NCBI GenBank assembly: GCA_051294905.1
Contig: CM119371.1
Coordinates: 6,822,001-6,886,000 of the forward strand
From: Botryllus schlosseri
Lineage: Eukaryota
Direction of reading: 5' to 3'
Length of the DNA stretch: 64,000 nucleotides
The notes beneath the pieces were generated by a model, which did no database searches, was not told the origin of the DNA, and saw nothing but the letters and a program-made list of their open reading frames with translations. This document shows, one piece after another, positions 11,329 to 48,563 of the stretch. The first letter of the stretch is position 1. Every line of letters starts with the position of its first letter. The translations under genes were made by a program, and so were the position numbers.

Positions 11329-12957
11329 CTATCTCTTCAAAAATACGGATGTGTAAATTTGAAAACCTTGATCTACTTTTGGTTTCACTATCGTCCATTT
11401 ATCCTGCGATGAATCAAACTTTTCAATTGTGTTAGAAGTTTCTCCATCTGTTACTGCAAAAATCCACTTGTCAATGTGATAAGCAGAAACTGGACCGTGA
11501 CAAGCATTCATACAAGATAATGAAGTCCACTGAGCTGAAGTAACATCGTAACATTCTACGTTGTCGATTTTCTTTCCTCCACTCACCCCACCGATCACAA
11601 ATATCTTCTGATCAACTGCAACAACACCACTCCCACACACAGGATATCTCATTGGGTCGAGATCAACCCACTCTGATGAAGATGGAGTGAATCTGCAGAA
11701 TGATGGAACTATGACACCATCTTGTGCTATACCGCCGATGCAATAGATGGAGTCATTCAATGATACGAGACTTGTTACACGAATCTCTGAAGGTTTGTCT
11801 TCTAGTTGAAACCATTGATTCACAAGAGAAGTAAATATTTCCACATCACTTGTTGCTTTATTATAACTTCCTCCAACAACAAAAATCGATCCCGACAAAG
11901 AAACTGAGCGAGGATACCATCCATGGTCACAAATCATATCTTTTATCCTTTCCCATTTTGAATTTTTGCTCTGAAAATTGAGTCGATGAACTGATTTATT
12001 CCTACATAAAATGTAGATATACGAGTCTAGAGAAATCGCTGAGAAATTTGTTAAATTCCCAAACTTCTCAACATGAAACTTTTCTACTTTCTCAGTTACT
12101 GGATTGAAGGATCGGATACAATCTGCGTCATCATCAAAAAGAATTATCAATTCATCATTGACAATTTCTTTATTCATTTTGTGCGATGCCTTTGAAGCTT
12201 CTAAAAGATGTCCAGTGATCAACTTGTACAGTCCCAAGTCGTTATTGATAATTTGGTTTGATTTCAAAAGACGTTCTAAAAATGCCGGAGGTACTTTATC
12301 AAACTTGATTGCTTCAAGACATTCGTCCAAATGTTCCTGATTTTTGCGATTTTTCTCAATCCAATTGAACAATAGCGTAAGTTTTTCTTCTTCGCACAAC
12401 TTTGATTTTTCTGAGATCACAAATTTGAGGATGTTGGTTTTTTCAATGCCTCCAAATTCAGGTTGGTTTGATATTTTCATGATATTTTCAATAAAAAACG
12501 CTTCACATCGTGTAGAGAGGGCATCCAGTCCATATATATCGGCAACATTTCTTGTGGGAAAGTAGTTCTCTACATCAACTGATTCCTCCAAAACGTCAGA
12601 TACTGCCTGCTTCACATCTTCCAACTGCATCATGATTGCGACATGTAGAAGATCATTCATCTTTTTATCAGGAATCTCAAATTTGCCCGAGTATATGAAA
12701 TCAATGCAGTTTTTCACACTCTGAGAATCGACCTCTTTCAAAACGACTTTTCCTTCACGACTCTCTTTAGTGTCGTGTTTCAACATCGCTTTGAAATAAG
12801 CACAACCAGCCGACAATACATTTTTGTGAGTGTAATAGACATCATCTCCCACTTGAATTATGAAATCACAATGATCGTTTTCTTGCTTCATTCGATGTAT
12901 TTCGTCCATCATCTTCACTGAATGTTTCTCTACATTTCTACACACAATCTGCACCAT
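11329..12957 (-). CDS. BTB-BACK-Kelch (kelch-like) protein, paralog 1, 542 aa, single coding exon
   Basis: Uninterrupted ORF with a BTB motif (HCDFIIQVG..THKNVLSAGCAYFKAML..CIDFIYSG), BACK helices (EEEKLTLLFNWI) and kelch repeats with GG and Y/W motifs (IFVVGG, IYCIGG, IFVIGG, VECYD..QW). Confidence 0.95.
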   Translation of the reverse strand: MVQIVCRNVEKHSVKMMDEIHRMKQENDHCDFIIQVGDDVYYTHKNVLSAGCAYFKAMLKHDTKESREGKVVLKEVDSQSVKNCIDFIYSGKFEIPDKKMNDLLHVAIMMQLEDVKQAVSDVLEESVDVENYFPTRNVADIYGLDALSTRCEAFFIENIMKISNQPEFGGIEKTNILKFVISEKSKLCEEEKLTLLFNWIEKNRKNQEHLDECLEAIKFDKVPPAFLERLLKSNQIINNDLGLYKLITGHLLEASKASHKMNKEIVNDELIILFDDDADCIRSFNPVTEKVEKFHVEKFGNLTNFSAISLDSYIYILCRNKSVHRLNFQSKNSKWERIKDMICDHGWYPRSVSLSGSIFVVGGSYNKATSDVEIFTSLVNQWFQLEDKPSEIRVTSLVSLNDSIYCIGGIAQDGVIVPSFCRFTPSSSEWVDLDPMRYPVCGSGVVAVDQKIFVIGGVSGGKKIDNVECYDVTSAQWTSLSCMNACHGPVSAYHIDKWIFAVTDGETSNTIEKFDSSQDKWTIVKPKVDQGFQIYTSVFLKR

Positions 12958-14986
12958 GATTGTCGATCAACTATAATTATCCTACGATTATTATAATATA
13001 GTCAAGCACTGTTATTGAATTAAAGATGATTAGTTAACTGAAGACTCAAGTAATGCCTGTTGAAAGAATCGTAATACGTATATCAACATCTCGAGAATGA
13101 ATTGAAGGACCTTCAACTACCCACAAGGTGAACACTGAACAGTGCTAAATCAGACGCAACCCTGCCATAATGCAGTTATGAAAACTTCATCCATCGATTT
13201 GCTTTACTTTTTATTCGTTGTATTATTGAGTATTGACACGAAACCTAAGAGTTATTGCGGTCTAATACCCCCACCTCGCGAATGATCGAGTTGATTATCC
13301 GTAATCTAAATTGTATTTTGGAACATCGTCAATTAATTTCATACTGTGGTATATTCCAGGAGCGGCCGCATCAGCTTCATCCTCCAACCGAATATCACAA
13401 AGATTGGTTTTAACAGAGAAGCAACACGAAAATCACACTGATATCACTCCGTGTTTGGAAACGAAATCAGCGAAGCATGTAGCTTGTCAGTGTCATCTAA
13501 CGGATAATTAGTTTTTGCATTTGCAGTGTAGCCGTTACCACCAATGATATAATATTTATCATTGCGGTTACTGACGCGATAAACCTTGTGCTAGCAGTAA
13601 CAGTTATTCAGTTTATGAATATTTTATTCATTTCAAAACACCACAAGACTGCGACTAGACGATGTAGACAGGGATATTTAGAACTAGTTCTAGATATCCG
13701 TGGATGTAGAGAAGAGGCATGCACTCACACTGAATGGAAAAAAGTAAAGCAGAAAATATAAAAGACAAGCTAGCCATACAAATGGGTACACCGGTACAAT
13801 CTTTGAAAATAGCGGGATTACCTCCAGCAAAAAGTGGAGTACGTTACCTGCATCCGCGTGACACTCTCCCTGACTGTAAAATCTGCATTCACCGTGTGCC
13901 CTTTGACATTCGTTTGTTGTTTTAGTTTCATCATGGAAAACTGAATGGGATAGAACGGTAACTACGTGGCCTGTCAATCATTTACGGTTGAATAACAATC
14001 AGTAGAGCCAGAATCTTTCGATGGTTTGCTGTTATTCTCCGGCTTACGTAACAGCGTACAACGGGCCAAGTAAGTGCTATTATTATTATCTTAAGTAACT
14101 TGTCTTGTCTAAATTACTTTGAATGTAATTATTGACAGTATCTGGCATGTGCCTTGATAACGTTATGAAGTGAATGACTTGTAAACTCCTTGACACAGAA
14201 ATGTCCCAACACTGCAAACTCAGGCCTCTCGCGCTTTCCCTTCACTCAGTTTTTCTTTCACATTGTCAGGTGATTGCCCAAACAAAGGTCAACTTTCCGG
14301 CCCAGCTCTCGAAATGGCCGCCGGAGCGTTACTGCAGTGCTGACTGATTATGTCTCTGTCGAATTCGGCCTTATATTTAACCTCAATTCTCAAAAAAAGA
14401 GGACATTTGGGCGTCCTCCAAGGACACTTTCACAAAAGTAAAAAAGAGGGCAAATCCTCTTAAAAGAGGACGTATTGTAACCCTACAATACAGAATGTTT
14501 GGTGATGACGCTGGCACGAAGATGATATCTTTTTCGAATGGACAGCATCTGTTGCAGCCTGTGCTAATGTTGAACATCATTACTATAAACGTTGAAGGCT
14601 ACTTTGGGTAAGTTTGATCTTTGTAGATGCCTGAGATTATGGGATGGTATTAATCCAAGTTTTGAATCGGTCTGTGCTGATTTGTTATGAGGCTTTCTTG
14701 TGATCTGTATACAGGGCAAACTAGTTGTTTACCTAGACTTATTAGACCGAAAAGCATGTCATCTAATTCTGTCTATTCTAACTAATTTTGAAATACTGTG
14801 TACTGTGTAGCTATAATTCTGATGCGGTTTGAATAAAAACTGTGTACTCCTAATTCAAATTCTAGTCTAATTTGTAAAAAGTGTATCGCTCTAATTCTGA
14901 TATAATTTGGAAAAGCTGAAAATTTCCTAGTTGTTCAAATTTGATGCAGTGGTAGTGTTAACATTTGTGTTACTCGTGCCAAGAAA

Positions 14987-16230: not shown

Positions 16231-16316
16231 TATAGATCGTTATCTGTATTTCTATTTATTTAACTTAGGCTACTATAGATCGTTATCTGTATTTCTATTT
16301 ATTTAACTTAGGCTAC
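16231..16316. repeat. 43-bp perfect tandem duplication
   Basis: TATAGATCG...TAGGCTAC occurs twice. Confidence 0.9.
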
Positions 16317-22145: not shown

Positions 22146-23218
22146 TACGAGCACCAACCCTATCGATCCGGCCCGCCAAGTAGCCTACATCATTTTTCCA
22201 TTTCCGGACCGCCGAATCGAGAAGTTGCCTCCCGGGTTCTGAATGTTCAGTTGTTCACCGCATAATAATCAGGTCGATAACTTGCTAGATTCCCAATTTC
22301 ATGCGTTCAATACAGTTTATTTTTACAAACAGTAGTTAAGTAACAAACACAGTTATGTCCGATTCATTTCGCAGAAGATGACGAGAATTTACTCTTACGC
22401 AGTTGTAGCAACAGATAGGACAATGGCAAATAAGAGACATTGAATTTCTGGACTCTCTTCTTCTGAGTAAATACCAGTGTTGGGATGACTCGAGTCATGA
22501 CTTGACTCGAGTCACCTTTTTCGTATGACTTGAGTTGACTCGAGTCACTTTGTTAAAATGACCTGACTTGAATCGCGCCAAGTGTTTACACCGTATCCTA
22601 TACATGCCATTGCTGTGTAGGCTACAGCATTAAAATTCTGATGCGGCGTTTTAACACTGGCACTGTACTCGTTAACATTAAGCCATACAGCTCAATTCAA
22701 TCTTTAAATGTGCGATTTTTATTCAACTGTAACTGTAGTAAGAGCAATATGGGCGGATATAACGACGTGATCAATAGAAATTCGATTTGTACCAAATGGC
22801 CAATGGTTTGACGTTCGATATTGGTGCACTCGTTACCAGTCCATCCGGTGTCGATCAAGCTTATCGGAATATAATATTTTCCCGTTGAAACGAGTCGAAT
22901 AATCGAATTAAACACTGTGCCATGCCCATAACGAATTAAACTATGCAGTGTGCACATTGCACATTTACAAGTTTACGAAACAGATGATTACAAATTGGAA
23001 ATCGCGTATCAAATCAGTAATTTGTCTCCAACATAAAATACCATGGGGTTTTGGGCTACTCTTCTGCCATCCCCTATTTACGCTAGAAAATCCTTACTTG
23101 AGTGAATGACGATGATGCGGGCTCTAGTGCAGGACCACCCCTAAAAACTCGCCATCTTCCGTGGGTCCTGCACTTATTTTGGTATCCCATCTTGAAAGAT
23201 ACTTTTCAAAACTCTTTA

Positions 23219-23912
23219 AGGGACTAGAAAGTCAAAATTTGAAATATGAAAATTTTCATTTTTTTCCTTGGCTTGAAATATTGACATAGTACCTATACTC
23301 TGACCTCATGGCCTTATCTTACCCAAAACATAACTAATAACTTCATAATTTCGATTTTCATCGGCACCGGTTAGTATCTGTTATTACTGGTAAAATGTTT
23401 ATTAACGTTTTTCTCCTTAGTAAAATTTTGTTAAACAGCGTCACGGTAAATCAAAAATTTGTATGACATATATGTCGTATAGTATTCATTAAGGTTTTTT
23501 TGAAAATCTAACATAGAGACCTGTGTTATGCTAAGAGACGTTTGGCCTAGGACTACCTTACTCTGAATTACAGAGCTTCACAGCAGACTTTTTGAGAAAA
23601 TGACCTGAAATTTGAAATTTCAAAATGGAATTTCTCCTAGAAGGGTTGCACATATTCCTTCATATTTTAGCATAACACAGCACTGTCCTAGTACTTCCTA
23701 CAGAAGGCGTTAGATTGAAAAAAGGGCTTCACAATATTGAGATTTAGCATTCCCCGTGTCGGTGCATTTTTTCTCCTTCAAATCCACAACCTGCAGGGTA
23801 GAACCAAACTATTTGTTTTTTTTGTATATAGCATAGCGACATCTAGCGACTGAAAATTTCATGGTGATGGGGGTAGTCTTCTGAGAGTTAGGTTTCTGAC
23901 TTGCTAGTCCCC
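23219..23912. mobile_element. Kolobok-like non-autonomous element (TTAA-flanked)
   Basis: TTAA-GGGACTAGAAAGTCA ... TGACTTGCTAGTCCCC-TTAA. Confidence 0.55.
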
Positions 23913-24627
23913 TTAAGTAGGTTTGCTCTACTTCTACAACTACCTCCAGTGGCTCGTTTTTCCACTCTTACACTTCTACTGAACAGATTTGTAGGAAAAA
24001 CTAGTTGCTTCTTACACTTTGGATCTCGTGGGAAGAAGTTTTGTGATACTTGCAATTCTTACTCGAGTGGTAACAATTTCAAACTACTTCCATTACAGTA
24101 TTTTTTGAAAACTAGGCCTAGAATAATCAACTTTTTCACGAATTTGGAAATTCCTACTTGTAGCCTACTTGAGTAGAAACTTACAACACTGCTTAGCCTC
24201 TTATTTGAGTGGCAACGATGAATACCTTGATATCTGCTCACGAAACAGCAATCTCGATTCAACCCCAACCTTCACCCACATTCGTCACTCACCTGCTTAC
24301 ATCGGGATCAACCGACTTTTCCTGTAGGCACCAACACCAACGGTGGGACCTGGAGCACTTTCTGGTCGCTAACCTCACGTTGCTGGGCGGCGGGCCAGGA
24401 AGTCATCCCGAATGAGGGGGACTCTGGAATAAAAGGGATTCTGTTTTTAGGGAAACATGAAACAAATTGTGACTCGATTATAACTGTAACTACAGTGTTT
24501 GACAAATTAGATTAGAATTAGAATGATAGCTATATAGTTTTTTTTTTTTTCGAATGAGATTAGAATTAGAATTATAACTACTCGGTGTTTTCCAAATGAT
24601 ATTAGAACTACAATTATAGGGAATTAG

Positions 24628-25651
24628 CAGGGTTGTAATGACTCGAGTCATGACTCGACTCAAGTTAGACTCGAGTCACGATTTTCTAATGACTCGACTT
24701 GACTCGAGTCATTTTCTCAAAACACAGAAATGACTCGAGTTGACTCGAGTCATTTCCTCGAAATACAGGAATGCCTCGACTTGACTCGAGTCATTTTCTC
24801 AAAATACGGAAATGACTCGACTCGAGTAAACGTGTGTATTGACTCGACTTGGACTCGAGTCATTGCGCATGACTCGAACCAAGTCATATGACTCGAGACT
24901 CAGACGACCAAGACCGACATTCATTGTAATTTCGCAGAACAAATAAAGTAACCACCCTATTGGGATTTCTTCTATTGGTACTGGTACTTGAAAATGCAAC
25001 CAAAAAATGTTAAAAGTGAGGAAAATCAGTATTATAGAAATGCGAACTATTCAATATCAACAAACAGAGTTATAAAAGTGGGTTTAGCACAGGGTTGTAA
25101 TGACTCGAGTCATGACTCGACTCGAGTCACGATTTTTGGATGACTTGACTCGATTCGAGACATTTTCTCAAAATACGGAAATGACTCGACTCGACTCAAG
25201 TCAATCTGTGTATTGACTTGGACTCGAGTCATTGCGCATGACTCGAAGCAAGTCATTGACTCGAGATACAGACGGCCAAGACCGACATTTCATTGTAATT
25301 TCGAAGTCAACACATTATTGGGATTGGGTTTGTAGGTACTGATGCTTGAAAATGCGACCAGAAACTGCTAAAAGTGAGGAAAATTGCTATATTATAAATG
25401 CGAACCATTCAATATCACCAAACAGAGTTAAAAAAGAGGGTTTAGGAAGACTTTAACTGGAAACTGAGCAGTCAACACAATGACTTGGACTCGAGTCATA
25501 ATACTATGACTCGGACTCGATCCTCTGTTCGCTGACTTGGACTCGGACTTGACTCGGTGGGAATTGAAAATGACTCGACTTGACTCGAGTCAAAACTAGA
25601 AAAGTGGGGTTGACTTGTGACTCGGAGCTTTATGACTTGGTTACAACCCTG
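24628..25651 (+). mobile_element. Complete GACTCGAGTC-rich element with an internal head duplication
   Basis: TIR CAGGGTTGTAA / TTACAACCCTG and flanking GAATTAG on both sides. A second left end lies at 25090. Confidence 0.85.
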
Positions 25652-26809
25652 GAATTAGAATTACTGGATTTGTAAAAAGCTGGCCGTAGCATGAAGTTGA
25701 GTCCATATCAAATTATAGTTTGTTCTCATAAGCACGAGAAAGGCAAATGCCTATTATACAGCAAGCTTGGCTCGTTTCATTGTTATTGTCTTATTCACTA
25801 CAGGCATGGGAATACGACTGAGGGCATCACACCATCACATTTTCTAAAAGGGGGCACTTATGTAAAAAAGAGGTCAAGAGCCACTGTTCTATATCAAGGG
25901 TATCATTTGGAGGCTGTCACATGATATGTTCGAATAATTATGCTGTTAAAAATAGATATCTCCTGGTTTTGATAGTGTATTTATGACAGGTTTTCAAATC
26001 TAGTTACATAATTCAGTAGTTTGAAAGACAGCAAATTCTACTGCTACCTGAAGTAGGCTACTTTTGGGTTGCTTGGAACAGCAATACTATTGCTAATACT
26101 TGAGTGAAATATGCACCGTCTTGACTATTTTGACAACTTCTGATCATGCATGCGGACTAGGGTGGTTCAGAAATAACTTTTTTTTTTAATTCCTAGGATT
26201 CACCGATTATATTGCTAGGTTGCCGAAAAACGCTCCACACCAATTTGGCTCGTTTCAACCAGTAAAAGCCGACGTAGAGCCAATTGAAATTTTGGAAATT
26301 ATTATAATTTGTTTTCTTCAAATTTCATTGTCAACGCCATAAAATTGTTAAGTTGCTTAAAAGAACAATGCATAACAATTTTTCTCAATTCAAACTGGTA
26401 GAAGCAAAGTTGCTGCAATTAAAAGGTTTAGATTTGCAAAAATAGCATTGATGGTGGGTAATCCCAGAATTATTAATGAAAAACTCAATTAACTTCTCTT
26501 TTACGGGTTGGAATTGCTTCAAATTTGTTTTGCAACTTTCTGTAGACAACTCAACAATTTCATGAGGTTCACAGCAACAACAAAAAAAATTTGAATAAAT
26601 ACCGTAATAAATTTCAATTGACTCTGCCTCGACTTCTACTGGTAGGAATTAAGCCAAATTTTGTGTGCAGCATTTTAAGGCAACCTGACATTCTAATCAG
26701 TGAATCCCGGGGATATGGAAAATAAGTTATTTTTGAACAATCCTAATGCATGCAATCGCTGATACCGGTAGTTTTTTTTTTTGTGACTATTTCGCGACAA
26801 CCAAAAGAC

Positions 26810-29010
26810 TTTACCCCCTCCGAATTTGCTGGAAATCTGTGAGCCATATTTAATGCTTGATTTCTATGTCAGTTCGTAATGAGTAAATGCTGGATGTAGG
26901 AGTCTGTAGGCTATAAATATATGGTGTGATGATGTTAGGGAAGATAATATGTTGATATGAGAGTCCATGGGATTCCACTTGATTCATTTAAAACAGATAT
27001 TGTCTACACTGTAGATGGAATGTTTGCTATATATTTCTATATTGTCACCCATTCAGGATATTACAAAATTACACATAAACTCACATGTCGCCATCATGAT
27101 TCCTGGAAAGCTGGATGTCTAGATCTCTTCTTTTGATCGATGAAAAAGCCTGAAAGAAAATCTCATAATTACACAACAGTAAAATGAAACAGTGGTTCCA
27201 CCAGCCACCTGGAACTGCATAGAGAACAAAAGTATCAGAAAATACTTTCATTTGGTGTAGAAAATATATTGGTGTCCACAGTGAAGTGGTTCACTTTAGT
27301 TTATTCATTCCATCGTTACGGCATTACAGAGACGTCACATTGCTAGGTTTGTACAATTTAGGAAGATTTGGTTGTTCATTAAACTCTGACCTGTGCCCAA
27401 TGTCACATCAAAGATGTAATCAAGTACCGGTATCTCATATAAGAGACTTACTAAATGTGGCTTGAAAATATAGCCAGATAAAACTCATCTTGAATGACAA
27501 TTGATGAACTTGCTCTAAATTTGCACCTTGCTTGACTCTGACCCACAGAAAATCCTTGCCTGTGATGATGAAGAAAGGATACATCTGGTTAGAAATGATT
27601 CAAATTCGATCTTTCCAGTACCCAATGTGTTGAGACTTGTTGTTACAGATAGATATAAGATCGTCACTAATGGTTGAATTGAATTTATTGGTAATAATTT
27701 TATCATTTCAAAACACACGACCATAGCATTGATTGCAAATAGTCGAATCCGAAATCATTGATTTTACGGAAAATGAATTCAGAATTACTCACTTTTATCT
27801 CGTCGACAGAATTGTCAGACATTGCTGCATGTCAGATTCCAACTGATTGATATCGGTTGAGATTGTCATGCAAACTTCTTTTATCATCAAAGCCATTTCA
27901 CATCCGACGACTAGACCATTAAATGATAAGTTATAAATTATGATCGTCTGATTGCAATCCACTGTAACAAAATGAAGAGTGGTAATGAAAAGTAAAATCA
28001 ATGAATCTATATACAGCACAGGTTGCTCAACCCCGGCAATCATACCATATTATGATGTGATATAGCGAGTGCGATAGCCCCGCATAAAAACATAATCGAA
28101 ATGGTTTACGTTGAGTATGCATGCGTACAAATTTGATATCTTGATCATGGATGCAAAAAACGATGTCAATTTTTGATTCGGTGCCCCCAAATTTGTCAAA
28201 CATAATAAAAATAACCAGATGAACAAAAATTTCATATGATTTTATTTCGTACTTAATCATTGTTCATGCGCGATTATCATAAAGTAAGATAGGCATATAA
28301 ACTTGTACCTTGTAACCGAAGCTCTATTTGGAAGCACATACTGTTGTGAGTATACCTTTTGAAGAGTGAATACCTTGAGCAAATATCGTATGCGGCTCAA
28401 CAAGGAAGAGATCATCCACACTCATATGTAATTTTCAAGCATCGAGTCAATGAGTGTTGTGGGTTAGTTCATACGGGGGAGGGGGTGCAGACTAGAGGAC
28501 CGTGCTATAAAGGTCTCATCACATCTCCGTCGTCAAAGCATCTCGATGGTGTAGGCGAAAAAAGAATACCATCTCTCTCTCTCTCTCTGAATCATGGGAA
28601 GGGTAAAACTTATACCGCTTACAGTAATCAGTAGCTTCCCCACTACCGATATTGGCAATATAATCATAGTGGAATCAACTGTCCAAGTCATCAAATTCAT
28701 TGATCATATTTATATTGAGTAAGGAACTAAACACATGATGGGCTGTATCGACTACAATAGGCGGTAGGATTAGGCACTGTGGTACAAGTCATGAAGTATA
28801 TTTCCACAACATTACTGGTTACTAATTGCTGTTACGTTCATCAAATGATACCAATCTACCGAAAAGTAAATTACACTTTTAAAAACTAAACGATCGAAAT
28901 TCTGCTGATTTCAAACAAAAATTACACGATCTTCCAAGGAAATTATGATTGATATAGCTTGATGAGTTGAAAATTGTAATTGTGAGCGACTAATTTTTAT
29001 TCATGTCCCA
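26810..29010 (-). pseudogene. Decayed multi-exon gene, possibly C-type-lectin-domain (unit 2 copy)
   Basis: Candidate exons bounded by pyrimidine-rich acceptors and GTGAG-type donors that are conserved among paralogs (e.g. 27793-27961). There is a signal-peptide-like MKFLFIWLFLLC, and many stops and frameshifts. Confidence 0.45.
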
Positions 29011-29519
29011 GATATAGACTTGTACAAACTACTAAGCTAGTTATGTGATGGTCGAGGGTAGTTCTAATTACGGATTTTAAAATGTGAATAGTTTTAGTAT
29101 CGTCGTTTGGCGTGAATAGCGATACTGGTGTTCTTTTGAGTGACGTTTTTGCAGCTTTTGCTAGCTCAGAGTTAATACTGCTAACAGTGGCGTAGCCAGT
29201 GTGGGTTTTGGGGGGTGGAAATACGTCAAATTTCGAACTCCAAACCCTGTTCTTTTGAAACGCCGATTCTATTTCCATTACATATTTTTCTGCTCATTTC
29301 CAATTCAGTAATTCACATTACCAGTAATACAGTTGCTTCCGGATTGAATCGACTTAGTTGTGTTTTGGTTACCTAGTTACAGATTGTTAAAGCATGTTAA
29401 TTCTAGTTCTAGTGGCAAGTTTTGAAAAGCGAGTAGTTCAGTAGTTCTAGTTTTAGTAGAATTTTTGAAAAACCAGTAGGCCTACCGTAATTTGTACAAG
29501 TCTGCTGAAGTGAGAGTCA

Positions 29520-29870
29520 TTTTTATTTAATCACCCAGTCTATCCGAAACCGAGTAATTTTACGAGAAGGACGCACAAAACGAAATCACAATTTCAAGTC
29601 ACGAATCATCAACGGGTCATGTTCTATCGTCATGAACTAGAAATGCGACGTAATCGCTGATCTTCTACCACCTCGTTGCTTTTAAAAGTGATGTGATACT
29701 GAAGTTTGTTGAGATCCCAGTGATTTTTATAGTAGTTTTAGATTGAACTTTAAGCTCTTAAATCTAAAAAAACATATGGCACCTAAATATATTGTTGAAT
29801 ACTTGAAATTCCAAAATAGCGTCGCAGTCCGCACAAAATGCTCCCGTGGGCCGCGTGTTTGAGACCTATG
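29520..29870. mobile_element. Truncated hAT MITE abutting the stop codon of kelch paralog 2
   Basis: Ends GGGCCGCGTGTTTGAGACCTATG, 2 bp from the stop codon. Absent in paralogs 1 and 3; the left end was not found. Confidence 0.6.
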
Positions 29871-29872
29871 AT

Positions 29873-31483
29873 CTATCTCTTCACAAATACGGATCTGTAA
29901 ATGTCCATTTGTCTTGTAAATGTCCATTTGTCTTGCGATGTATCATACTTTTCAATTGCCTTAGACGTTCTGAAATCTGCTACTGCAATAATCCACTTGT
30001 CAATGTGATATGCAGAAACCCACCCATGACAAGCATTCATAGAAGATAATGAAGTCCACTGAGATGAAGTAACATCATAGCATTCAACTGTATTGATGAC
30101 CTTTCCACTCCATCCACCGATCACAAATATCTTCTGATCAACTGCAACAGCACCACTCTCATAAACAGGATATCTCATTGGGTCGAGATCAACCCACTCT
30201 GACGAGGATGGAGTGAATCTGCTGAATGAAGAAACTGGAATAAGATCTTGTCCTCTACCTCCGATACAATAGATGGAATCATTCAATGATACGAGACTTG
30301 CTGCACAAATCCCTGTAGGTTTGTCTTCTAGCTGAATCCATTGATTCACGGGTGGTTTAAATATTTCCACATCACATGTTGCTTCAAGATAACTTCCTCC
30401 GACAACGAGTATTGATCCTGACAAAGAAACTGAGCAAGGATCGGTTCCATGATCACAAATCATATCTTTCGTCCTTTCCCATTTTGAATTTTTGCTCTGA
30501 AAATTGAGTCGATGAACTGATCTATTCTCACATAAAACGTAGATATACGAGCCTAGAGAAATTGCCGAAAAATTTGTTAAATTCAGAAACTTCTCATCAT
30601 GAAACTTCTCTACTTTCTCTGTTACTGGATTGAAGGATCGGATACAATCTGCCTTAGGATCAAAAAGAATTATCAATTCATCTTTTCCAATTTTTTCGTT
30701 TGTTTTGTGTGATGCTTTATACGTTTTCAAAAGATGTCCATTGATCAACTTGTACAGTCCAAAGTCGTTACTGATAACTACGTTTGATTCCAAAAGACAT
30801 TCTAAAAATGCCGGAGAGACTTTATGAAACTTGATTGCTTCGAGACAATCGCGCAAATGTTCTACATTATTGCGATTTTTCTCAACCCAATTGAACAATA
30901 CCGTTAGTTTTTCTTCTTCGCATAACTTTGATTGTTCCAACATCACATATTTGAGGAAGTTAGTTTTTTCAATGCTTCCAAATTCCGATTGATTTGATAT
31001 TTCCATGATATTTTCAAGAAAAAACGCTCTACATCGCGTAGACACGGCATCCAGTCCATACATATCGGCGACATTTCTTGTAGAAAAGTAATTCTTAACA
31101 TTAATTGATTCCACCAAAACGTCAGATATTGCCTGTTTCACATCTTCCAACTGCAACATGATCGCGACATGAATAAGATTATTCATCTTTTCTTCAGGAA
31201 TCTCAAATCTGCCGGAATATATGAAATCAATGCAGCTTTTCACACACCGAGAATCAACGTCTTTCAAAACAACTTTTCCTTCACGATTCTCTTTTGTGTC
31301 GTGTTTTAACATAGCTTTGAAATAAGCACAACCAGCCAACAATACATTTCTGTGAGTGTAGTAGACATCATCTCCCACTTGAATTATGAAATCACAATGA
31401 TCGTTTTCTTGCTTCATTCGATGTAATTCTTCCATCATCTTCACTGAATGTTTCTCTACATTTGGACACACAATCTGCACCAT
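29873..31483 (-). CDS. BTB-BACK-Kelch protein, paralog 2, 536 aa from the ATG at 31483
   Basis: Colinear with paralog 1. The ORF track starts at an upstream TTG; the shared ATG (MVQIVC) is at 31483. The C-terminus has been remodelled by an indel. Confidence 0.93.
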   Translation of the reverse strand: MVQIVCPNVEKHSVKMMEELHRMKQENDHCDFIIQVGDDVYYTHRNVLLAGCAYFKAMLKHDTKENREGKVVLKDVDSRCVKSCIDFIYSGRFEIPEEKMNNLIHVAIMLQLEDVKQAISDVLVESINVKNYFSTRNVADMYGLDAVSTRCRAFFLENIMEISNQSEFGSIEKTNFLKYVMLEQSKLCEEEKLTVLFNWVEKNRNNVEHLRDCLEAIKFHKVSPAFLECLLESNVVISNDFGLYKLINGHLLKTYKASHKTNEKIGKDELIILFDPKADCIRSFNPVTEKVEKFHDEKFLNLTNFSAISLGSYIYVLCENRSVHRLNFQSKNSKWERTKDMICDHGTDPCSVSLSGSILVVGGSYLEATCDVEIFKPPVNQWIQLEDKPTGICAASLVSLNDSIYCIGGRGQDLIPVSSFSRFTPSSSEWVDLDPMRYPVYESGAVAVDQKIFVIGGWSGKVINTVECYDVTSSQWTSLSSMNACHGWVSAYHIDKWIIAVADFRTSKAIEKYDTSQDKWTFTRQMDIYRSVFVKR

Positions 31484-34180
31484 GCTTGTCAATCATCCAC
31501 AATTGGCTATAATTATAGAGTGATCCTACGATTATTATGATATAGTCAAGCACTGTTATTGAAGGAAAGATGATGAGTAGGGCGATTTTCTTGAGATGTC
31601 AATATAAGTCTAAATTGAAGCGCTAGGTCAAAAATTGTTCACAAAGTCAAAATTTGTGTGACCTCTGCATTTCGTTTGTCCAGTAGATTTTGCACTGTCG
31701 GTGAACTTATCATTGTCCGCTCATTGTGAATCATAAATGGTATCAAGCAGACACTACTAATAAGCATTGGTCAGAAACGAAATTTATGAAATAGTCAAAT
31801 AGCATACGTGTAGTCTACATGCACTTAGTCAAGTATTCAAGGACTTGGACTTGCAGTCTTTCTTAATCATTTGTTCGACCCAAGCAGCTGAGCTACAGTA
31901 CATGTATTTTCAATTTGGTCAAGTGGGAAGCAGCGTTCGGTTATACTTACATTAATTACACAATTTAACGAAACCAGATAAACAACAACCTGATATTATT
32001 CAAAACACTGAGGCGAAGTGTAGATGTCAAACAAGCAGTAGTAACTAAAGCGAAAGAATCAAAACTTCTGTACAATATCATCTATACATAGTGACCATTA
32101 GAATATGCAACCTAAATTGCATATTTTCCTTAAGTAAAAGAAACCGTTATTGGCTTTGGGAATAGTGAGGATTAACACATCTGCGAAATGCAGTGGTTCT
32201 TGACCTTTTCATGGATGCAGCCCAATTTTCATTTCGCAAATATGCCATGATCCACAACTCAGCCTCAATTTCTATCTAAGCGGTGGCAATATGGCAGGTT
32301 TAGAGAGGTGACCTATTTAATGGGTGTTACATCACAATTCCCTTGTCATTGACATAAGTTATTGTTCAACTCAATAGCAGGTTGTAAATTGAGCATGGGG
32401 CGTCAATATCATTAACGAGCGGCACAGTGAAATTTTACGATTCTTCAAGGGATATCTGGACCTCGACAACTAGAACTTTTCAGATTTTTCAAATTAGGGC
32501 AAAATCAGAATAATAGCTACACTGTTTTTTTTTCAAATTAAGGGTAAAATCAGAATTATAGCTGAACATTATTTTCCAAACTAGATAAAAATTAGAAATA
32601 TAGTTACACTTTTTTCCAAATTATATTAGAATAGCCGAGTTCACGAAAACTTGGACATTAAATCAAGTTCAGTTCATATCAAATCATCGTTGCGAGCACG
32701 ATCAAGTCAAATGTCTGTACCGCAAGCTTAGCTCGTTTTGAGCTATACAGTTCTTCTGTAGCATTTGCAGGAAAACCGGAAATTAGATTAGAATTAAAAT
32801 TAGAGCATAGAAACATTTCTGAAATTAAATTTTAATTAGAGAAAGGGCACATTTCACGAAATCGATTACGTGCATTTCAATCGAATCAGTCAAATTGGAC
32901 AACTAAAATTATCTAGTTGTCCAAGTAGGTCTGGACAGTCTCCGCCTTATTGGGTCAACTGTGTGATTTGGAGCCCGAGTTGGATTGTTACTTGGTGCCT
33001 GCAGTGCGCTTTGCCTGGTCACTAGATGTCGACAAAATGAAGGAGGCGCTTTTCGTAATGAGTTCACGACAAATGTGAAATTTTGTCGGTGTCTGCTTCT
33101 GTGACAACCTGCGATCCAGTGATGGGGCTGGGGTTTAAATTTTACGAATTCTGCGTTTGGCTGCTTCGAGCCACCGCATTCTTACTCCCCTTCAAAATTT
33201 TCCGGGTATGCGCTGCTTCACGTCCTCCTAGATCTGCAAAAAATAGTAGCGAGTCAGTCAATACTAGCATTGGAATCACATGTTATTAGGATATTTTACA
33301 AATCCCGGGATTTCGAGAAAGCATCTTCTAGAGCAGTGGTTCTCAACCGGGGGTCCGCGGAGCCTCAAAATAGTTGATAAGCTAATTTGTATTTTTTCAA
33401 ATTCGGAAAATCACGAGGCACTTTCGCTTCATTACTCGAAAGAGTGCGGGGCTGACATCAACAGAATGGCAGTCTGAGGTGAAATATCAGACTCATTTTA
33501 ATTGCTAAATAGCGATAGCCTAGGGATACAAACATTTTTCTGTTACGAGATGTTTTGTTGGATGAGTAAGGTCAGGCACGGTGATTTCAAAATGTTTACA
33601 AAAACCCATTTTCTCTTTAGATAACCATTTTTCCATAACAACTTCACGATAAACTGCTAGATAGAAATGACCAGGATTGTGATAAGGGGCGTGCAGCTTC
33701 TCCAGTCGGCTGGTCCGATATGGAAAAATTAGGTACTGGAGGCGGACCAGATTCCTGAGTTGATACATAAATCGTGTATTTATCCACCTATATATCTATT
33801 GCAGAGGTGGGCAACCTTTTTGGCGTCCACGGCCGCATTTCGAATACTTCGGCGCCATACGGCCGCCAGCCATATGTGAGTTGACTAAAAAAATCTCAAT
33901 CTTCCGTTTTGAATCCCGAAATACCCGTTAACGTTATTTGGGTTGATAAAGTCAACCATACCCATTGTCGTCGCGAATGCCGAAATCCACATTTCACGCC
34001 ACTTTAGTGCAATCCACAAGCTTGAAGACGCGGTATAATTGCCTACGAAGACATTTGGCCGCCCTCGGAGGACATTTTAGCTTTGTTTAAAAACTTAATT
34101 TCTACTAATCTTATCATATCTAATAAATACCAAACATATTTTGAAACGAATATATTTAAGGAAAGTCTCTAACATTGAAA

Positions 34181-45340: not shown

Positions 45341-46600
45341 GATATCATTATGTTAACGTCACTAATTAATTTTTAAATGCCTAGGTTGGTGCAAATAGAA
45401 TATCGTTGTCCATCCTAATTGCGACTCGAAAATACGCAGCCAAATAAAACTCACCTTGAATGACAATTGGTGAACTTGCTCTAATGTTGCAACTAGCTTG
45501 ACTCTGATCGAAAGAAAATCCTTGCCTGTGATGATAAAGAAAGGATACATCAGGTCAGAAACGATTCAAATTTGAACTTTACAGTCACCAACGTGTTCAG
45601 ACTTGTTGTTACAGATCGAAATAAGATCGTTACTAGTGTTCGAGTGGAGTTTATTGTGAATAATTTTAATTTTTCAAAACACCCCACTATAGCATTGATG
45701 GCAAATAATCGAATCTGAAATCATTGATTTTATGAAAAGGTAAATTCAGAAATTCTCACTTTCATCTCCCGGGTTAAATGGTCACACATTGATGCATGTC
45801 AGATTCCAACTGATTGATAACGGTTGAGATTATCATGCAAACTTCTTTTATTACCAAAATCATTTCACATTCGCCGACCAGACCATTAAATGATCTGCTA
45901 TGTATGACGGTATTCTGATTGCAATCCACTGTAACAAAATGAAGAGTGGTTATGAAAAGTAAAATCAATGAATCTATATATACAGCACAGGCTGCTCAAT
46001 TCTGGCAATCGCACCAGAATATGTGGTAGATAACCAGTAGCCAATAGTCACCTCATAGAAGCTTAATCACAATGGTTGGTTTTGAGTACGAATAAAATTA
46101 GGAATCTTGATCATGGATAGCGGAAAAATGACACTTTTTCATTCCGCGCACCCAAATTCTTCAAAAAACAATAAATATAGCAAGATAACCAAAAATTTCA
46201 TCCGATTTTATATCGTACTTAATCATTTTATCCACGATTCTCATAAAATAAGATACACACATAAACTTGTAACCTAAGCGCTATTTGAAAACGTATACTG
46301 GTACTGCTGTTGTGTTCCGTTTGAAGAGCGGATAACTTGATCATGTACGGTACTCGACTTAACAAGGGTGAGATCATCCAAACTGATTTGACTTTTTCAT
46401 ATTGAGTCTTTGAGTGCAGCTGGATTTTTCGTATTGAATTATTGGCAATGTACAACTTATACGGCCTACAGTAATCAGTAGGTTCCCAACTCCTTATATT
46501 GGCCATGTAACCCCTGTGCAATGAATTTTACCAGTCATCAAAATCATCCTCCATATTTATATCGAGTAAGGAACTACAGTAAATATATGATGGGCTGTAT
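44270..46600 (-). pseudogene. Decayed multi-exon gene (unit 3 copy)
   Basis: A 71-nt candidate exon at 45455-45525 (CACAG|...|GTGAGT) encodes QGFSFDQSQASCNIRASSPIVIQ. A signal-like MKFLVILLYLLFF lies near 46200. Confidence 0.45.
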
Positions 46601-46922: not shown

Positions 46923-48563
46923 TCAGTTGAGTGCAATCTCTCTCTTCACAAATACAGATTTGTAAATTCGACAACATCGATCTACTTTTGGTTTCACTAC
47001 AGTCCATTTGTCTTGTGATATATCATATTTTTCAATTTGATTAGAGGTTTCTCCATCCGTTACTGCAAAAATCCACTTGCCAATGTGATAAGTAGAAATT
47101 CTATAATGACAAGCATTCATAGAAGATAATGAAGTCCACTGAGCTGAAGAAACATCGTAACATTCTACGTTGTCGACATGGAATCCTCCCCTGACCCCAC
47201 CGATCACAAATATCTTTTGATGAATTGCAACAACACCACTCGCACGTACAGGATATCTCATTGGGTTGAGATCAACCCACTCTGATGAGGATGGAGTGAA
47301 TCTGCAGAATGATGAAACTTCATCATAATCCTGTTTTATACCTCCAATACAATAGATGAAATCATTTGTTGATACGAGACTAGCATCATATATCGCTGTT
47401 GGTTTGTCTTCTAATTGAATCCATTGATTCAGGGAAGAAATAAACATTTCCACATCACTTGTTGCTTTATTGCTTGCTCCAACAACAAATATCGATCCTG
47501 AAAAAGAAACTGAGCAAGGCCGGCATCCATGATCACAAAGCATATCGTTCATTCTTTCCCATTTTGAACTTTTGCTCTGAAAATTGAGCCGATGAACTGA
47601 TTTATTCCCACATAAAATGTAGATATATGAGTCTAGAGAAATCGCAGAAAACTTTTTTAAATTCTCATACTTCTCATCATGAAACTTCTCAAGTTTCTCA
47701 GTTACCGGATTAAAGGATATGATACAATCTGCCTTAACATCAAAAAGAATTATCAATTCATCATTGCCAATTTCTTTGTTTGTTTTCTGTGATGCTTTCG
47801 GAGCTTTCAAAAGATGTCCAGTGATCAACTTGTACAATCCTAAGTCGTTATTGATGATTAGGTTTGATTCCAAAAGACATTCTAAAAATGCCGGAGAGAC
47901 TTTATCAAACTTGATTGCTTCTAGACATTCGTGCAAATGTTCCTGATTTTTGCAATTTTTCTCGACCCAATTGAACAATAAAGTTAGTTTTTCTTCTTCG
48001 CATACCTTTGATTGTTCCGACATCACAGATTTGAGGAGGTCAGTTTTTTCAATGCTGCCAAATTCAGGTTGGTTTGATATTTCTATGATATTTTCATGAA
48101 AAAATGCTCTACATCGCGTAGAGACGGCATCCAGTCCATACATATCGGCGACATTTCTTGTGGGAAAGTAGTTCTCTACATTAACTGATCGCTCCAAAAC
48201 GTCAGATACTGCCTGTTTCACATCTTCCAATTGCATCATGATTGCGACATGAAGAAGATCATTCATCTTTTCATCAGAAATCTCAAATTTGCCAGAATAT
48301 ATGAAATCGATGCAGTTTTTCACACACTGAGAATCGACCTCTTTAAAAAGAACTTTTCCTTCACGACTCTCTTTGGTGTCATGTTTCAACATAGCTTTGA
48401 AATAAGCACAACCAGCCGACAACACATTTTTATGAGTGTAATAGACATCATCTCCTACTTGAATTATGAAATCACAATGATCATTTTCTTGCTTCATTCG
48501 ATGTAATTCTTCCATCATCTTCACTGAATGTTTCTCAACATTTCGACACACAATCTGCACCAT
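46923..48563 (-). CDS. BTB-BACK-Kelch protein, paralog 3, 546 aa from the ATG at 48563
   Basis: Colinear with paralogs 1 and 2. The TAG used in paralogs 1 and 2 is GAG here, which adds EIALN. Confidence 0.93.
   Translation of the reverse strand: MVQIVCRNVEKHSVKMMEELHRMKQENDHCDFIIQVGDDVYYTHKNVLSAGCAYFKAMLKHDTKESREGKVLFKEVDSQCVKNCIDFIYSGKFEISDEKMNDLLHVAIMMQLEDVKQAVSDVLERSVNVENYFPTRNVADMYGLDAVSTRCRAFFHENIIEISNQPEFGSIEKTDLLKSVMSEQSKVCEEEKLTLLFNWVEKNCKNQEHLHECLEAIKFDKVSPAFLECLLESNLIINNDLGLYKLITGHLLKAPKASQKTNKEIGNDELIILFDVKADCIISFNPVTEKLEKFHDEKYENLKKFSAISLDSYIYILCGNKSVHRLNFQSKSSKWERMNDMLCDHGCRPCSVSFSGSIFVVGASNKATSDVEMFISSLNQWIQLEDKPTAIYDASLVSTNDFIYCIGGIKQDYDEVSSFCRFTPSSSEWVDLNPMRYPVRASGVVAIHQKIFVIGGVRGGFHVDNVECYDVSSAQWTSLSSMNACHYRISTYHIGKWIFAVTDGETSNQIEKYDISQDKWTVVKPKVDRCCRIYKSVFVKREIALN

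What the first reader, a model, noticed from the sequence alone, without database searches (positions are those of the whole stretch)
11329..48563. Kelch paralogs vary in the propeller's predicted binding-face loops while the scaffold is conserved
Seen, paralog 1/2/3: DHGWYPRSV / DHGTDPCSV / DHGCRPCSV; KPSEIRVTS / KPTGICAAS / KPTAIYDAS; GGIAQDGVIV / GGRGQDLIPV / GGIKQDYDEV; YPVCGSG / YPVYESG / YPVRASG; GGVSGGKKID / GGWSGKVIN / GGVRGGFHVD; CHGPVS / CHGWVS / CHYRIS; FDDDADC / FDPKADC / FDVKADC. The adjacent strands (RFTPSSSEWVDL, VECYDV, HRLNFQSK) and the BTB domain are nearly invariant. Established: the loops after GG and before strand A form the substrate-binding face of kelch propellers, and BTB-BACK recruits Cul3. 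Inference: a diversifying array of ubiquitin-ligase substrate receptors, as expected of intracellular pathogen- or selfish-element-recognition genes.
Basis: partly seen in the sequence, partly recalled or inferred. Interest (0 to 1): 0.78.

Follow-up and report, generated by a model that had tools for sequence, protein, structure and literature searches.

The report
Diversifying BTB-Kelch gene array in tunicate
Three neighbouring genes belong to a megabase-long array of about fifty near-intact copies of a ubiquitin-ligase adaptor whose target-binding surface, and almost nothing else, has been driven to differ from copy to copy, which looks like a large inherited set of intracellular recognition proteins whose targets are unknown.

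Summary
It carries three coding-intronless BTB-BACK-Kelch genes. They belong to a roughly 1 Mb array with 52 copies at 78-85% identity, 44 of them complete and open. The genome holds at least 104 places of this family.

My codon site models on 44 array genes reject neutrality:
- M8a against M8 gives 2dlnL 561; four null simulations gave at most 3.6.
- M1a against M2a gives 660.
- About 5-7% of codons have omega near 4.
- The signal survives when each 90-135-codon segment gets its own tree.

On an AlphaFold model (pLDDT 90), 20 of the 22 selected Kelch sites lie in BC or DA loops, and every one of the 12 such loops holds at least one (Fisher p 5e-7). These loops form the substrate-binding face of Kelch adaptors (PMC3597819).

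BTB and the propeller strands are under purifying selection. A second cluster repeats the pattern.

Still open: expression (only trace RNA reads), Cul3 binding, and the targets. The youngest duplicates do not show the top-face focus. An immune or anti-selfish-element role remains conjecture. The scan had not noted this family before on other DNA.

The parts
11329..12957 (-). Paralog 1: uninterrupted ORF of 542 aa (BTB-BACK-Kelch), stop codon included
   Evidence: ORF list. Pfam BTB E 1.5e-22, BACK 2e-13, Kelch_1 1.5e-27. AlphaFold model with pLDDT 90.2.
12583..12891 (-). Paralog 1 BTB domain (residues 23-125)
   Evidence: Pfam stretch 23-125. Pooled dN/dS across the array is 0.17, and 86 of 128 BTB-class codons are under purifying selection at P>0.9.
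12265..12552 (-). Paralog 1 BACK domain (residues 136-231), whose first helices would form the 3-box
   Evidence: Pfam stretch 136-231. All-helical in the model. dN/dS 0.34.
11335..12153 (-). Paralog 1 six-bladed Kelch propeller (residues 269-541). Blade 1 is closed by the C-terminal strand 534-541.
   Evidence: 24 strands in the DSSP of the model. Foldseek TM-score 0.82-0.84, normalised on the target, to the KLHL12, Keap1 and KLHL3 Kelch domains. 20 of 22 selected Kelch sites lie in BC/DA loops.
29873..31483 (-). Paralog 2: ORF of 536 aa from the ATG at 31483, stop codon included
   Evidence: An identical coding sequence lies 145 kb away at C1:6707039-6708646.
46923..48563 (-). Paralog 3: ORF of 546 aa from the ATG at 48563, stop codon included
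12958..13031 (-). Conserved leader of about 74 nt in front of the ATG, with a pyrimidine-rich ...AACAG that looks like a 3' splice or trans-splice acceptor about 50 nt upstream of the ATG
   Evidence: Alignment of 9 paralog upstream regions, A3. Homology to paralog 1 in the 100 nt before the ATG is shared by 92% of 28 paralogs and falls off beyond 200 nt. Use as an acceptor is inferred, not shown.
23136..33786 (.). Segment around paralog 2 that is duplicated at C1:6.70 Mb
   Evidence: Megablast gave 91.6%, 97.8% and 95.4% identity in three pieces. The gene plus 300 bp on each side differs at only 1 of 2208 bases. This points to recent gene conversion or a very recent duplication.

Best explanation
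The three genes are members of a large, lineage-specific, tandemly amplified family of cytosolic BTB-BACK-Kelch proteins. They are most likely dimeric substrate receptors of Cullin-3 RING ubiquitin ligases. After a burst of duplication (synonymous divergence about 0.29, star-like tree), positive selection changed 1-4 residues in each of the twelve BC and DA loops. These loops build the substrate-binding upper face of the propeller. The Cullin-binding BTB-BACK module and the propeller strands stayed under purifying selection. The result is a germline-encoded repertoire in which nearly every copy carries its own binding surface, so each copy should recruit a different protein or degron for ubiquitylation. 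Shown here: the domain architecture and fold, the array, the selection signal and its location on the structure. Inferred: Cul3 recruitment, ubiquitylation, and that the variable face binds substrates. Conjecture: the targets are fast-evolving foreign or selfish proteins, which is the leading guess but carries less than even odds.
For: Architecture and fold:
- Pfam finds BTB, BACK and Kelch in all three genes.
- The AlphaFold model has pLDDT 90.2 and six blades.
- The best Foldseek matches are full-length KBTBD2 and KLHL22 in CUL3 complexes. Kelch domains of KLHL12, Keap1 and KLHL3 match at TM 0.82-0.84.

Array:
- There are 52 places at 78-85% identity in C1:6.59-7.55 Mb, and 44 are complete and open. 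44 of the 47 near-full-length copies lie on the minus strand.
- together give 104 distinct places of the family.
- Pairwise nucleotide distance is tightly grouped (5th-95th percentile 0.113-0.149).

Selection:
- My likelihood engine reproduces the IQ-TREE M0 lnL of -24140.23.
- M1a -23055.8 against M2a -22725.7 (5.0% of sites, omega 4.3). M8a -22983.7 against M8 -22703.3 (7.0% of sites, omega 3.8).
- Four of four null simulations gave an M8a/M8 statistic of 3.6 or less.
- With a separate tree for each of five segments, M8a/M8 is 154.6, 68.5 and 89.2 for the three Kelch segments, against 11.9 and 29.6 for BTB and BACK.
- A dual-rate grid gives beta 6-11 with alpha 0.5-2.3 at the strongest sites, and 256 of 539 codons under purifying selection.

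Location:
- Selected sites per class are BC 10/49, DA 10/62, strands 1/125, AB 0/10, CD 1/28, BTB 2/128 and BACK 2/126. Fisher p is 4.7e-7.
- For structure-defined classes, tree-free pooled dN/dS is 1.18 for BC, 0.59 for DA, 0.30 for strands and 0.17 for BTB, and dS is similar across these four classes (0.235-0.365).
- Canning et al. 2013 state that the substrate pocket on the upper face is shaped by the DA and BC loops (PMC3597819, section 17, passage read).

Repertoire:
- There are 43 distinct 22-site signatures among 44 genes, and a median of 18 of the 22 sites differ per pair.
- Arg and Trp are enriched 3-4 fold at these sites.

Replication:
- A second cluster at C1:35.9-36.1 Mb (6 genes) gives BC 0.92 and DA 0.75 against strands 0.23.
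Against: - Expression is not shown. In three RNA runs the coding bins of paralog 1 had depth of at most 1, and paralog 2 at most 0.2. 96-97% of all reads laid on the stretch fitted only in part.
- Cul3 binding is untested. The triplet aligned to Keap1's L-R-E in the alpha3-beta4 loop is T-K-E: the Glu is kept but the hydrophobic residue is a Thr.
- The youngest duplicates do not focus their changes on the top face. L024/L031 have 5 nonsynonymous codons, all in BTB. A trio in the 15 Mb cluster has only 5 of 24, 10 of 33 and 14 of 40 nonsynonymous codons in BC/DA loops. The signal therefore comes from the older burst.
- Synonymous divergence is somewhat raised at the selected codons (NG86 dS 0.50 against 0.275; mean alpha 1.74 against 1.10). 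The tree-free ratio at the 26 selected sites is only 1.64, because those sites are saturated.
- Gene conversion occurs in the array, and this can distort tree-based tests.
- My site models fixed kappa and the relative branch lengths, and used empirical-Bayes posteriors without a prior on the parameters. PAML and HyPhy were not available.
Confidence: 0.62

Rival explanations
1. The loops are simply unconstrained. Neutral drift, gene conversion mosaics and alignment error together mimic positive selection.
For: Loops tolerate change in all propellers. Gene conversion is visible: the gene is nearly identical inside a flank that is 2-8% diverged. The M7/M8 test is grossly inflated under a neutral-class null, at 207-293. 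Young duplicates have N:S codon counts near neutral expectation.
Against: M8a/M8 gives 561 against at most 3.6 in 4 of 4 null simulations. The signal persists with separate trees for each 90-135-codon segment. 25 of the 26 selected columns have no gaps. dS in BC loops (0.266) equals dS in BTB (0.264). Within the top loops, 34 of 111 codons are under purifying selection, so the loops are not free to vary.
Confidence: 0.06
2. The array is a set of sub-functionalised housekeeping or developmental Cul3 adaptors. Each is matched to a member of an equally expanded endogenous substrate family, with no link to conflict or immunity.
For: All characterised vertebrate KLHL proteins have endogenous substrates (general knowledge; examples appear in PMC3597819). 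Nothing here links the genes to infection. Purifying selection on most of each protein shows long-term usefulness.
Against: Omega of 4-5 at the binding face, and nearly unique signatures in 43 of 44 copies, are unusual for adaptors with stable endogenous partners. Birth-and-death turnover is seen: 7 of 52 copies are broken or truncated. No relative above 53% identity was found among 1.84 billion representative proteins.
Confidence: 0.2
3. The repertoire serves self/non-self discrimination between individuals or gametes. It would work like the arrays of S-locus F-box proteins in plants, which jointly degrade non-self S-RNases (recalled).
For: The logic is analogous: a linked array of E3 substrate receptors, each with its own specificity. 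Earlier notes of this scan place the genome among sea squirts (not verified by me). Sea squirts are hermaphrodites with self-sterility and, in colonial forms, allorecognition (recalled).
Against: There are no data on polymorphism between individuals, linkage to a compatibility locus, or gonad expression. The family sits at several chromosomal sites rather than at one locus.
Confidence: 0.05
4. The proteins are not ubiquitin-ligase adaptors. The BTB-Kelch scaffold is used for another purpose, such as cytoskeletal scaffolding, or as decoys or inhibitors that merely sequester partners.
For: The residue aligned to the hydrophobic Cul3-clamp position is a Thr in all 44 copies. Some Kelch proteins bind actin (recalled).
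Against: BTB and BACK are the most conserved parts of the protein (dN/dS 0.17 and 0.34), as expected if they keep a common partner. The Glu of the motif is kept in at least 90% of the 49 aligned homologues. The best structural matches are CUL3-bound adaptors.
Confidence: 0.07

Closest known systems
Vertebrate KLHL/KBTBD Cul3 substrate adaptors (Keap1, KLHL12, KLHL3, KLHL22, KBTBD2)
   Same: BTB-BACK-six-blade-Kelch architecture and length. The fold matches at TM 0.82-0.84 for the Kelch domain. The variable surface is the BC/DA-loop face that binds substrates in Keap1 and its relatives (PMC3597819).
   Different: Only 15-23% identical in the structural alignments. The coding sequence is intronless. 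There are at least 104 copies in megabase arrays instead of single conserved genes. The binding face is under positive selection. A Thr sits at the position aligned to the hydrophobic Cul3-clamp residue.
Adaptively evolving MATH-BTB and F-box adaptor families of nematodes and grasses (Thomas 2006, Genome Res 16:1017)
   Same: Large lineage-specific tandem families of Cullin-ligase substrate adaptors. The Cullin-binding module is conserved and positive selection acts in the substrate-binding domain, which was read there as recognition of foreign proteins.
   Different: The recognition domain here is a Kelch propeller, not MATH or FTH/FBA, and the host is a tunicate-like chordate relative. I could not read that paper: it is not held, and I saw only its entry in the reference list of PMC4091423. 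Its content is recalled.
TRIM5/finTRIM-type E3 ligases with hypervariable B30.2 loops (recalled)
   Same: An E3-linked recognition domain with a fixed scaffold, surface loops under positive selection, and tandem expansion.
   Different: RING-B-box-coiled-coil-SPRY architecture that acts as its own E3, rather than a Cul3 adaptor. No call tested this comparison.
BTB-Kelch gene families of poxviruses and other Nucleocytoviricota
   Same: Intronless, multi-copy BTB-BACK-Kelch genes. A protein-atlas cluster of Nucleocytoviricota 'KBTBD1' proteins ranks among the look-alikes at score 0.97.
   Different: These copies lie in a chromosome array. No relative was found in the viral contig collection with a single-protein query. 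Mollusc and chordate KLHL clusters score as high or higher.
S-locus F-box (SLF) arrays of Solanaceae (recalled)
   Same: A linked set of diversified E3 substrate receptors that work as a collective recognition repertoire.
   Different: F-box/SCF rather than BTB/Cul3, and plants rather than animals. There is no evidence here for a compatibility function.

Membership tests
BTB-BACK-Kelch (KLHL/KBTBD) Cul3 substrate adaptors | N-terminal BTB/POZ domain | tested here: met
   Pfam PF00651, with E-values 1.5e-22, 7e-21 and 1.6e-20 in the three genes.
BTB-BACK-Kelch (KLHL/KBTBD) Cul3 substrate adaptors | BACK domain, whose first two helices form the 3-box | tested here: met
   Pfam PF07707, E-values from 2e-13 to 1e-12. 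Helices 132-142 and 145-157 follow the BTB domain in the model. Their identity as the 3-box is inferred from position (PMC3597819).
BTB-BACK-Kelch (KLHL/KBTBD) Cul3 substrate adaptors | C-terminal six-bladed Kelch beta-propeller | tested here: met
   24 strands in six blades, with C-terminal closure. TM 0.82-0.84 to the KLHL12, Keap1 and KLHL3 Kelch domains.
BTB-BACK-Kelch (KLHL/KBTBD) Cul3 substrate adaptors | Cul3-contact loop alpha3-beta4 with a hydrophobic residue and a Glu (phi-X-E; motif name recalled) | tested here: inconclusive
   The triplet aligned to Keap1 L-R-E is T63-K64-E65. It is invariant in the three window genes, and the Glu is kept in at least 90% of 49 homologues. The hydrophobic position holds a Thr.
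BTB-BACK-Kelch (KLHL/KBTBD) Cul3 substrate adaptors | Physical binding of Cul3, and BTB homodimerisation | not testable with these tools
The complex predictor was not available.
Adaptively evolving E3-adaptor arrays (Thomas 2006 type) | Large lineage-specific tandem family with birth and death of copies | tested here: met
   52 places in about 1 Mb, of which 7 are broken or truncated. The union of three searches gives 104 places. The nearest outside relative is 53% identical.
Adaptively evolving E3-adaptor arrays (Thomas 2006 type) | Positive selection confined to the substrate-recognition surface, with the Cullin-binding module conserved | tested here: met
   M8a/M8 gives 561. By segment it is 154.6, 68.5 and 89.2 in Kelch, against 11.9 and 29.6 in BTB and BACK. 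20 of 26 selected sites lie in BC/DA loops.
Adaptively evolving E3-adaptor arrays (Thomas 2006 type) | Targets are foreign or selfish proteins, or the genes respond to infection | not testable with these tools
   No substrate or infection data exist. The RNA reads laid gave only trace coverage.

The most novel reading that the evidence does not exclude
A sea-squirt-like animal, from the sister group of vertebrates, carries a germline-encoded repertoire of at least 100 intracellular Cul3 receptors. Each has its own roughly 22-residue binding surface spread over all twelve top-face loops. This would be an E3-ligase-based recognition library that marks fast-evolving foreign or selfish proteins for destruction. 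Candidates include the products of the virus-like transposons that earlier notes of this scan report in this genome. Alternatively it could act as a collaborative non-self system of the plant SLF kind.
Probability: 0.25. Interest if true: 0.85.

Novelty: new variant of a known kind. Interest (0 to 1): 0.62.

Why it matters
Arrays of ubiquitin-ligase adaptors under positive selection are known for F-box and MATH-BTB proteins in nematodes and plants. In four of my paper searches I found no report of a BTB-Kelch array with selection mapped to the propeller's binding face, and none in tunicates.

The case here is unusually clean:
- All twelve binding-face loops are hit, while the strands and the Cullin-binding module are conserved.
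- There are 43 distinct surfaces among 44 genes.

This gives a natural library of Kelch binding surfaces on one scaffold. It is useful for asking what such repertoires recognise in an invertebrate chordate that lacks adaptive immunity, and as a guide for engineering Kelch-based degraders.

The work also gives a practical warning: M7 against M8 alone would have 'detected' selection even in neutral simulations.

Tried and rejected
I worked from searches and fetched stretches instead.
- **The look-up of sequencing runs** listed no RNA holder.
- **Read laying** on window 10900-30899 with three RNA runs and one contig set gave only trace depth on the genes. The contig run X1 covered all 30 bins, so it looks like DNA. 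Expression is therefore neither shown nor excluded.
- **M7 against M8** gave 2dlnL 703. I rejected it as evidence after null simulations gave 207-293.
- **Cul3 complex prediction** was not possible.
- **Viral origin:** no relative in viral contigs with a single-protein query. The protein atlas gave only generic KLHL look-alikes.
- **The search for homologous proteins** gave 7 hits, three of them at 41-52% identity and without names. It gave no help on organism or function.
- **Pfam on 37 other window ORFs** of at least 90 aa gave 0 hits, so no second gene type is visible within the repeat unit.
- **Paper searches** found no description of this family. Thomas 2006 is not held.
- **Earlier findings by sequence:** none.
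Only three of its five young copies were compared.
Full report
**What is in the window**

The minus strand carries three uninterrupted ORFs:
- 11329-12957 (542 aa)
- 29873-31483 (536 aa from the ATG at 31483)
- 46923-48563 (546 aa)

Each has BTB, BACK and Kelch domains by Pfam, with E-values from 1e-20 to 1e-28. The proteins are 79-82% identical. The N-terminus is not hydrophobic, so by inspection the proteins are not secreted.

Apart from a compound hAT transposon with two identical 639-aa ORFs, none of 37 other ORFs of at least 90 aa matched a Pfam family.

**The wider array**

The window is G000:C1:6822001-6886000 in a 495.5 Mb assembly. A six-frame search with paralog 1 scored 80 of 550 first-look candidates. 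All 80 matched at E of 1e-204 or better.

- 47 near-full-length places at 78-85% identity lie in C1:6.59-7.55 Mb. 44 of these are on the minus strand.
- Five shorter places lie in the same range. Three of them contain stop codons.
- Of the 47 near-full-length copies, one has a premature stop (L015), one lacks the first 34 codons (L046), and one loses its last four codons (L006).
- Searches seeded from two other clusters added 5 and 19 further places, giving 104 distinct places. Further clusters sit at C1:13.8-14.0, 14.7-15.7 and 35.9-36.2 Mb and on C14.
- Gaps between neighbouring genes are 6.8-89 kb.
- Pairwise nucleotide distance is tightly grouped (5th-95th percentile 0.113-0.149) and the tree is star-like. 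This indicates one main burst of duplication.
- The left end of the array is paralogous to the right end, at an offset of about 790-830 kb.
- Outside this genome, the nearest of 26,763 hits among 1.84 billion representative proteins is 53% identical, then 47%, 43% and 32%.

Earlier notes of this scan call the genome a sea squirt's. I did not verify that.

**Selection analysis: methods**

I extracted 49 coding sequences: 45 from the array and 4 from C14/C16. I dropped one exact duplicate (L044, identical to window paralog 2), the two broken copies (L015, L046) and the four out-cluster genes. That left 44 genes by 539 codons.

IQ-TREE's GY+F3X4 model gave omega 0.477, kappa 2.217 and lnL -24140.23. 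My own pruning code reproduced that likelihood.

I kept kappa and the relative branch lengths fixed. A global scale was chosen per model from seven values, and site likelihoods were interpolated on an omega grid.

**Selection analysis: site-model results**

| Model | lnL | Positive class |
|---|---|---|
| M1a | -23055.8 | – |
| M2a | -22725.7 | 5.0% of sites, omega 4.3 |
| M7 | -23054.8 | – |
| M8a | -22983.7 | – |
| M8 | -22703.3 | 7.0% of sites, omega 3.8 |

Twenty-six codons have an M8 posterior above 0.95.

**Selection analysis: controls**

*Null simulations.* I ran four simulations on the same tree under the fitted M8a model. The M7/M8 statistic came out at 207-293, so that test is not diagnostic here. 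The M8a/M8 statistic came out between -5.5 and 3.6, against 561 observed.

*Recombination.* I cut the alignment into five segments and gave each its own tree.

| Segment | M8a/M8 2dlnL |
|---|---|
| BTB | 11.9 |
| BACK | 29.6 |
| Kelch 1 | 154.6 (omega 5.5) |
| Kelch 2 | 68.5 |
| Kelch 3 | 89.2 |

*Dual-rate model.* A grid over synonymous and nonsynonymous rates, with weights fitted by EM, gave 27 sites with P(beta>alpha) above 0.95 and 256 sites under purifying selection. At the strongest sites beta is 6-11 and alpha 0.5-2.3. Mean alpha is 1.74 at the selected sites and 1.10 elsewhere.

*Alignment quality.* 25 of the 26 selected columns have no gaps.

**Mapping on structure**

AlphaFold2 on a 49-sequence alignment gave mean pLDDT 90.2 and pTM 0.57. 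The model has a helical BTB-BACK part and 24 strands that form six four-stranded blades. The C-terminal strand 534-541 closes blade 1.

Foldseek's best matches were full-length KBTBD2 and KLHL22 in CUL3 complexes. The Kelch domains of KLHL12, Keap1 and KLHL3 matched at TM 0.82-0.84.

By the topology of a four-stranded blade, the B-C and D-A connections lie on one face and the A-B and C-D connections on the other. Canning et al. 2013 state that the substrate site lies on the upper face and is shaped by the DA and BC loops (PMC3597819, section 17, passage read).

| Structure class | Selected / total codons | Pooled dN/dS (946 pairs) | Bootstrap 95% |
|---|---|---|---|
| BC loops | 10/49 | 1.18 | 0.84-1.63 |
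| DA loops | 10/62 | 0.59 | 0.40-0.83 |
| Strands | 1/125 | 0.30 | 0.23-0.41 |
| AB loops | 0/10 | 0.19 | – |
| CD loops | 1/28 | 0.43 | – |
| Linker | 0/11 | 0.37 | – |
| BTB | 2/128 | 0.17 | 0.12-0.25 |
| BACK | 2/126 | 0.34 | 0.27-0.44 |

- Within the propeller, 20 of 111 top-face codons are selected against 2 of 163 others (Fisher p 4.7e-7).
- Each of the twelve BC/DA loops holds at least one selected site: 277; 300 and 304; 319; 347 and 348; 366; 393 and 394; 410 and 416; 441 and 442; 458, 461, 462 and 465; 489; 505; 533.
- dS is alike across classes: 0.266 in BC, 0.264 in BTB and 0.235 in strands.
- At the 26 selected sites the pairwise method gives only 1.64, because those sites are saturated (pN 0.50). 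dS there is 0.50 against 0.275 elsewhere.
- The 22 selected Kelch sites give 43 distinct signatures among 44 genes, and a median of 18 of the 22 sites differ per pair. Arg is 12.6% at these sites against 3.4% overall, and Trp is 4.9% against 1.5%.

**Replication and limits**

Six distinct genes of the cluster at C1:35.9-36.1 Mb show the same contrast: BC 0.92 and DA 0.75, against strands 0.23 and BTB 0.25. Variation sits at the same loop positions.

The youngest duplicates do not show the focus on the top face.

| Pair or trio | Nonsynonymous : synonymous codons | Location of nonsynonymous changes |
|---|---|---|
| L024/L031 | 5 : 11 | all 5 in BTB |
| L028/L032 | 11 : 9 | 3 in BC/DA |
| L027/L035 | 13 : 2 | 5 in BC/DA |
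| 15 Mb trio (3 of its 5 young copies) | 24:7, 33:33, 40:34 | 5, 10 and 14 in BC/DA |

So the binding-face diversification belongs mainly to the older burst. Recent copies look relaxed, or are changing elsewhere.

Gene conversion is at work. A 10.6 kb segment around paralog 2 recurs 145 kb away. Its flanks are 91.6-97.8% identical, but the gene plus 300 bp on each side differs at 1 of 2208 bases.

**Gene structure and expression**

Homology between copies extends about 100-200 nt upstream in most paralogs and about 800 nt downstream in about half. The roughly 74 nt before the ATG are strongly conserved and contain a pyrimidine-rich AACAG that could be a splice or trans-splice acceptor. That reading is inferred.

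No RNA run is on record as holding the stretch. Three RNA runs were read to 6-13% of their size.
- Depth on paralog 1's coding bins was at most 1.
- Depth on paralog 2 was at most 0.2.
- 96-97% of all laid reads fitted only in part.
- The higher depth in the intergenic bins belongs to repeats with many loose ends.

Expression is therefore open. The purifying selection on half of the codons argues that the proteins are made.

**Mechanism**

By homology, the BTB-BACK part should dimerise and bind Cul3, and the upper face of the propeller should hold the substrate. The position aligned to Keap1's L-R-E in the Cul3-clamping loop is T-K-E. The Glu is conserved but the hydrophobic residue is replaced.

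I could not test binding. Cullin genes here are split into small exons, and the complex predictor was unavailable.

Four selected sites lie outside the propeller, at residues 7, 79, 204 and 211. What they do is unknown. An effect on dimer partner choice is a guess.

**Comparison and novelty**

The closest concept is the adaptive evolution of MATH-BTB and F-box adaptor families in nematodes and plants (Thomas 2006). That paper is not held. I saw only its citation, and its content is recalled.

The differences here are the recognition domain (Kelch), the host lineage, and the complete coverage of the binding face. The paper searches returned no report of such a BTB-Kelch array. Those searches cover only the held open-access library.

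No viral relative turned up. The scan had not noted this family on other DNA.

**Verdict**

Ligase function is likely but inferred. The immune or anti-selfish-element role is conjecture.

Noticed in passing
window 33794-40473 (ORFs 34181-36100 and 37694-39613, minus strand): Two identical 639-aa hAT-type transposase ORFs 3513 bp apart (Pfam hAT dimerisation domain, DUF4371, a C2H2-type zinc finger). The duplicated segment around paralog 2 ends exactly at this element (33786).
   Followed up: partly
window 23136-33786 versus G000:C1:6701326-6710907 (L082/L083): A segmental duplicate 145 kb away. The flanks are 91.6-97.8% identical, but the gene plus 300 bp on each side differs at 1 of 2208 bases. 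This suggests recent gene conversion, or patchy assembly redundancy.
   Followed up: partly
window 12958-13031, and the same place before the other paralogs (alignment A3): A strongly conserved 74-nt leader with CTTTA(A/C)TTCAATAACAG, a candidate 3' splice or spliced-leader acceptor about 50 nt before the ATG. No read evidence was obtained.
   Followed up: partly
window 14235-20904 and 22239-26240: The intergenic bins have the highest RNA depth. Many reads carry loose ends, and joints link 22518 to 25571 and 15030 to 25498 (opposite strands). These are probably transcribed repeats or transposons. One joint, 14607 to 15626, appears in 21 reads of one run without canonical splice ends.
   Followed up: no
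window 4242-5821 versus 53431-55010: About 1.6 kb repeated at 90-94% identity, 49.2 kb apart (repeat families D6, D9-D12). This could be a dispersed repeat or a trace of a three-unit duplication.
   Followed up: no
window 7283-7622, 8784-9123, 27672-28011, 45639-45978, 62262-62487: An element of about 230-340 bp recurs 1-4 kb downstream of each Kelch gene (families D1 and D2), so it is part of the duplication unit. Its function is unknown.
   Followed up: no
G000:C1:14.77-15.18 Mb (L079, L084, L085): A young sub-cluster of five copies, 93-96% identical to the query copy L079. One pair has 24 nonsynonymous against 7 synonymous codon differences, and 17 of the 24 lie in BTB-BACK rather than in the propeller loops.
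   Followed up: partly
paralog residues 7, 79, 204, 211 (paralog 1 numbering; window 12937-12939, 12721-12723, 12346-12348, 12325-12327): Four codons outside the propeller also fall in the positively selected class. Residue 7, just before the first BTB helix, takes many different residues among the copies (R, P, K, T, Q, A and S are seen).
   Followed up: no
G000:C1:35879435-35881057 versus 35999604-36001226 (L052, L051): Two copies 120 kb apart differ at 3 bases of the coding sequence. This is another very recent duplication or conversion, in a different cluster.
   Followed up: no
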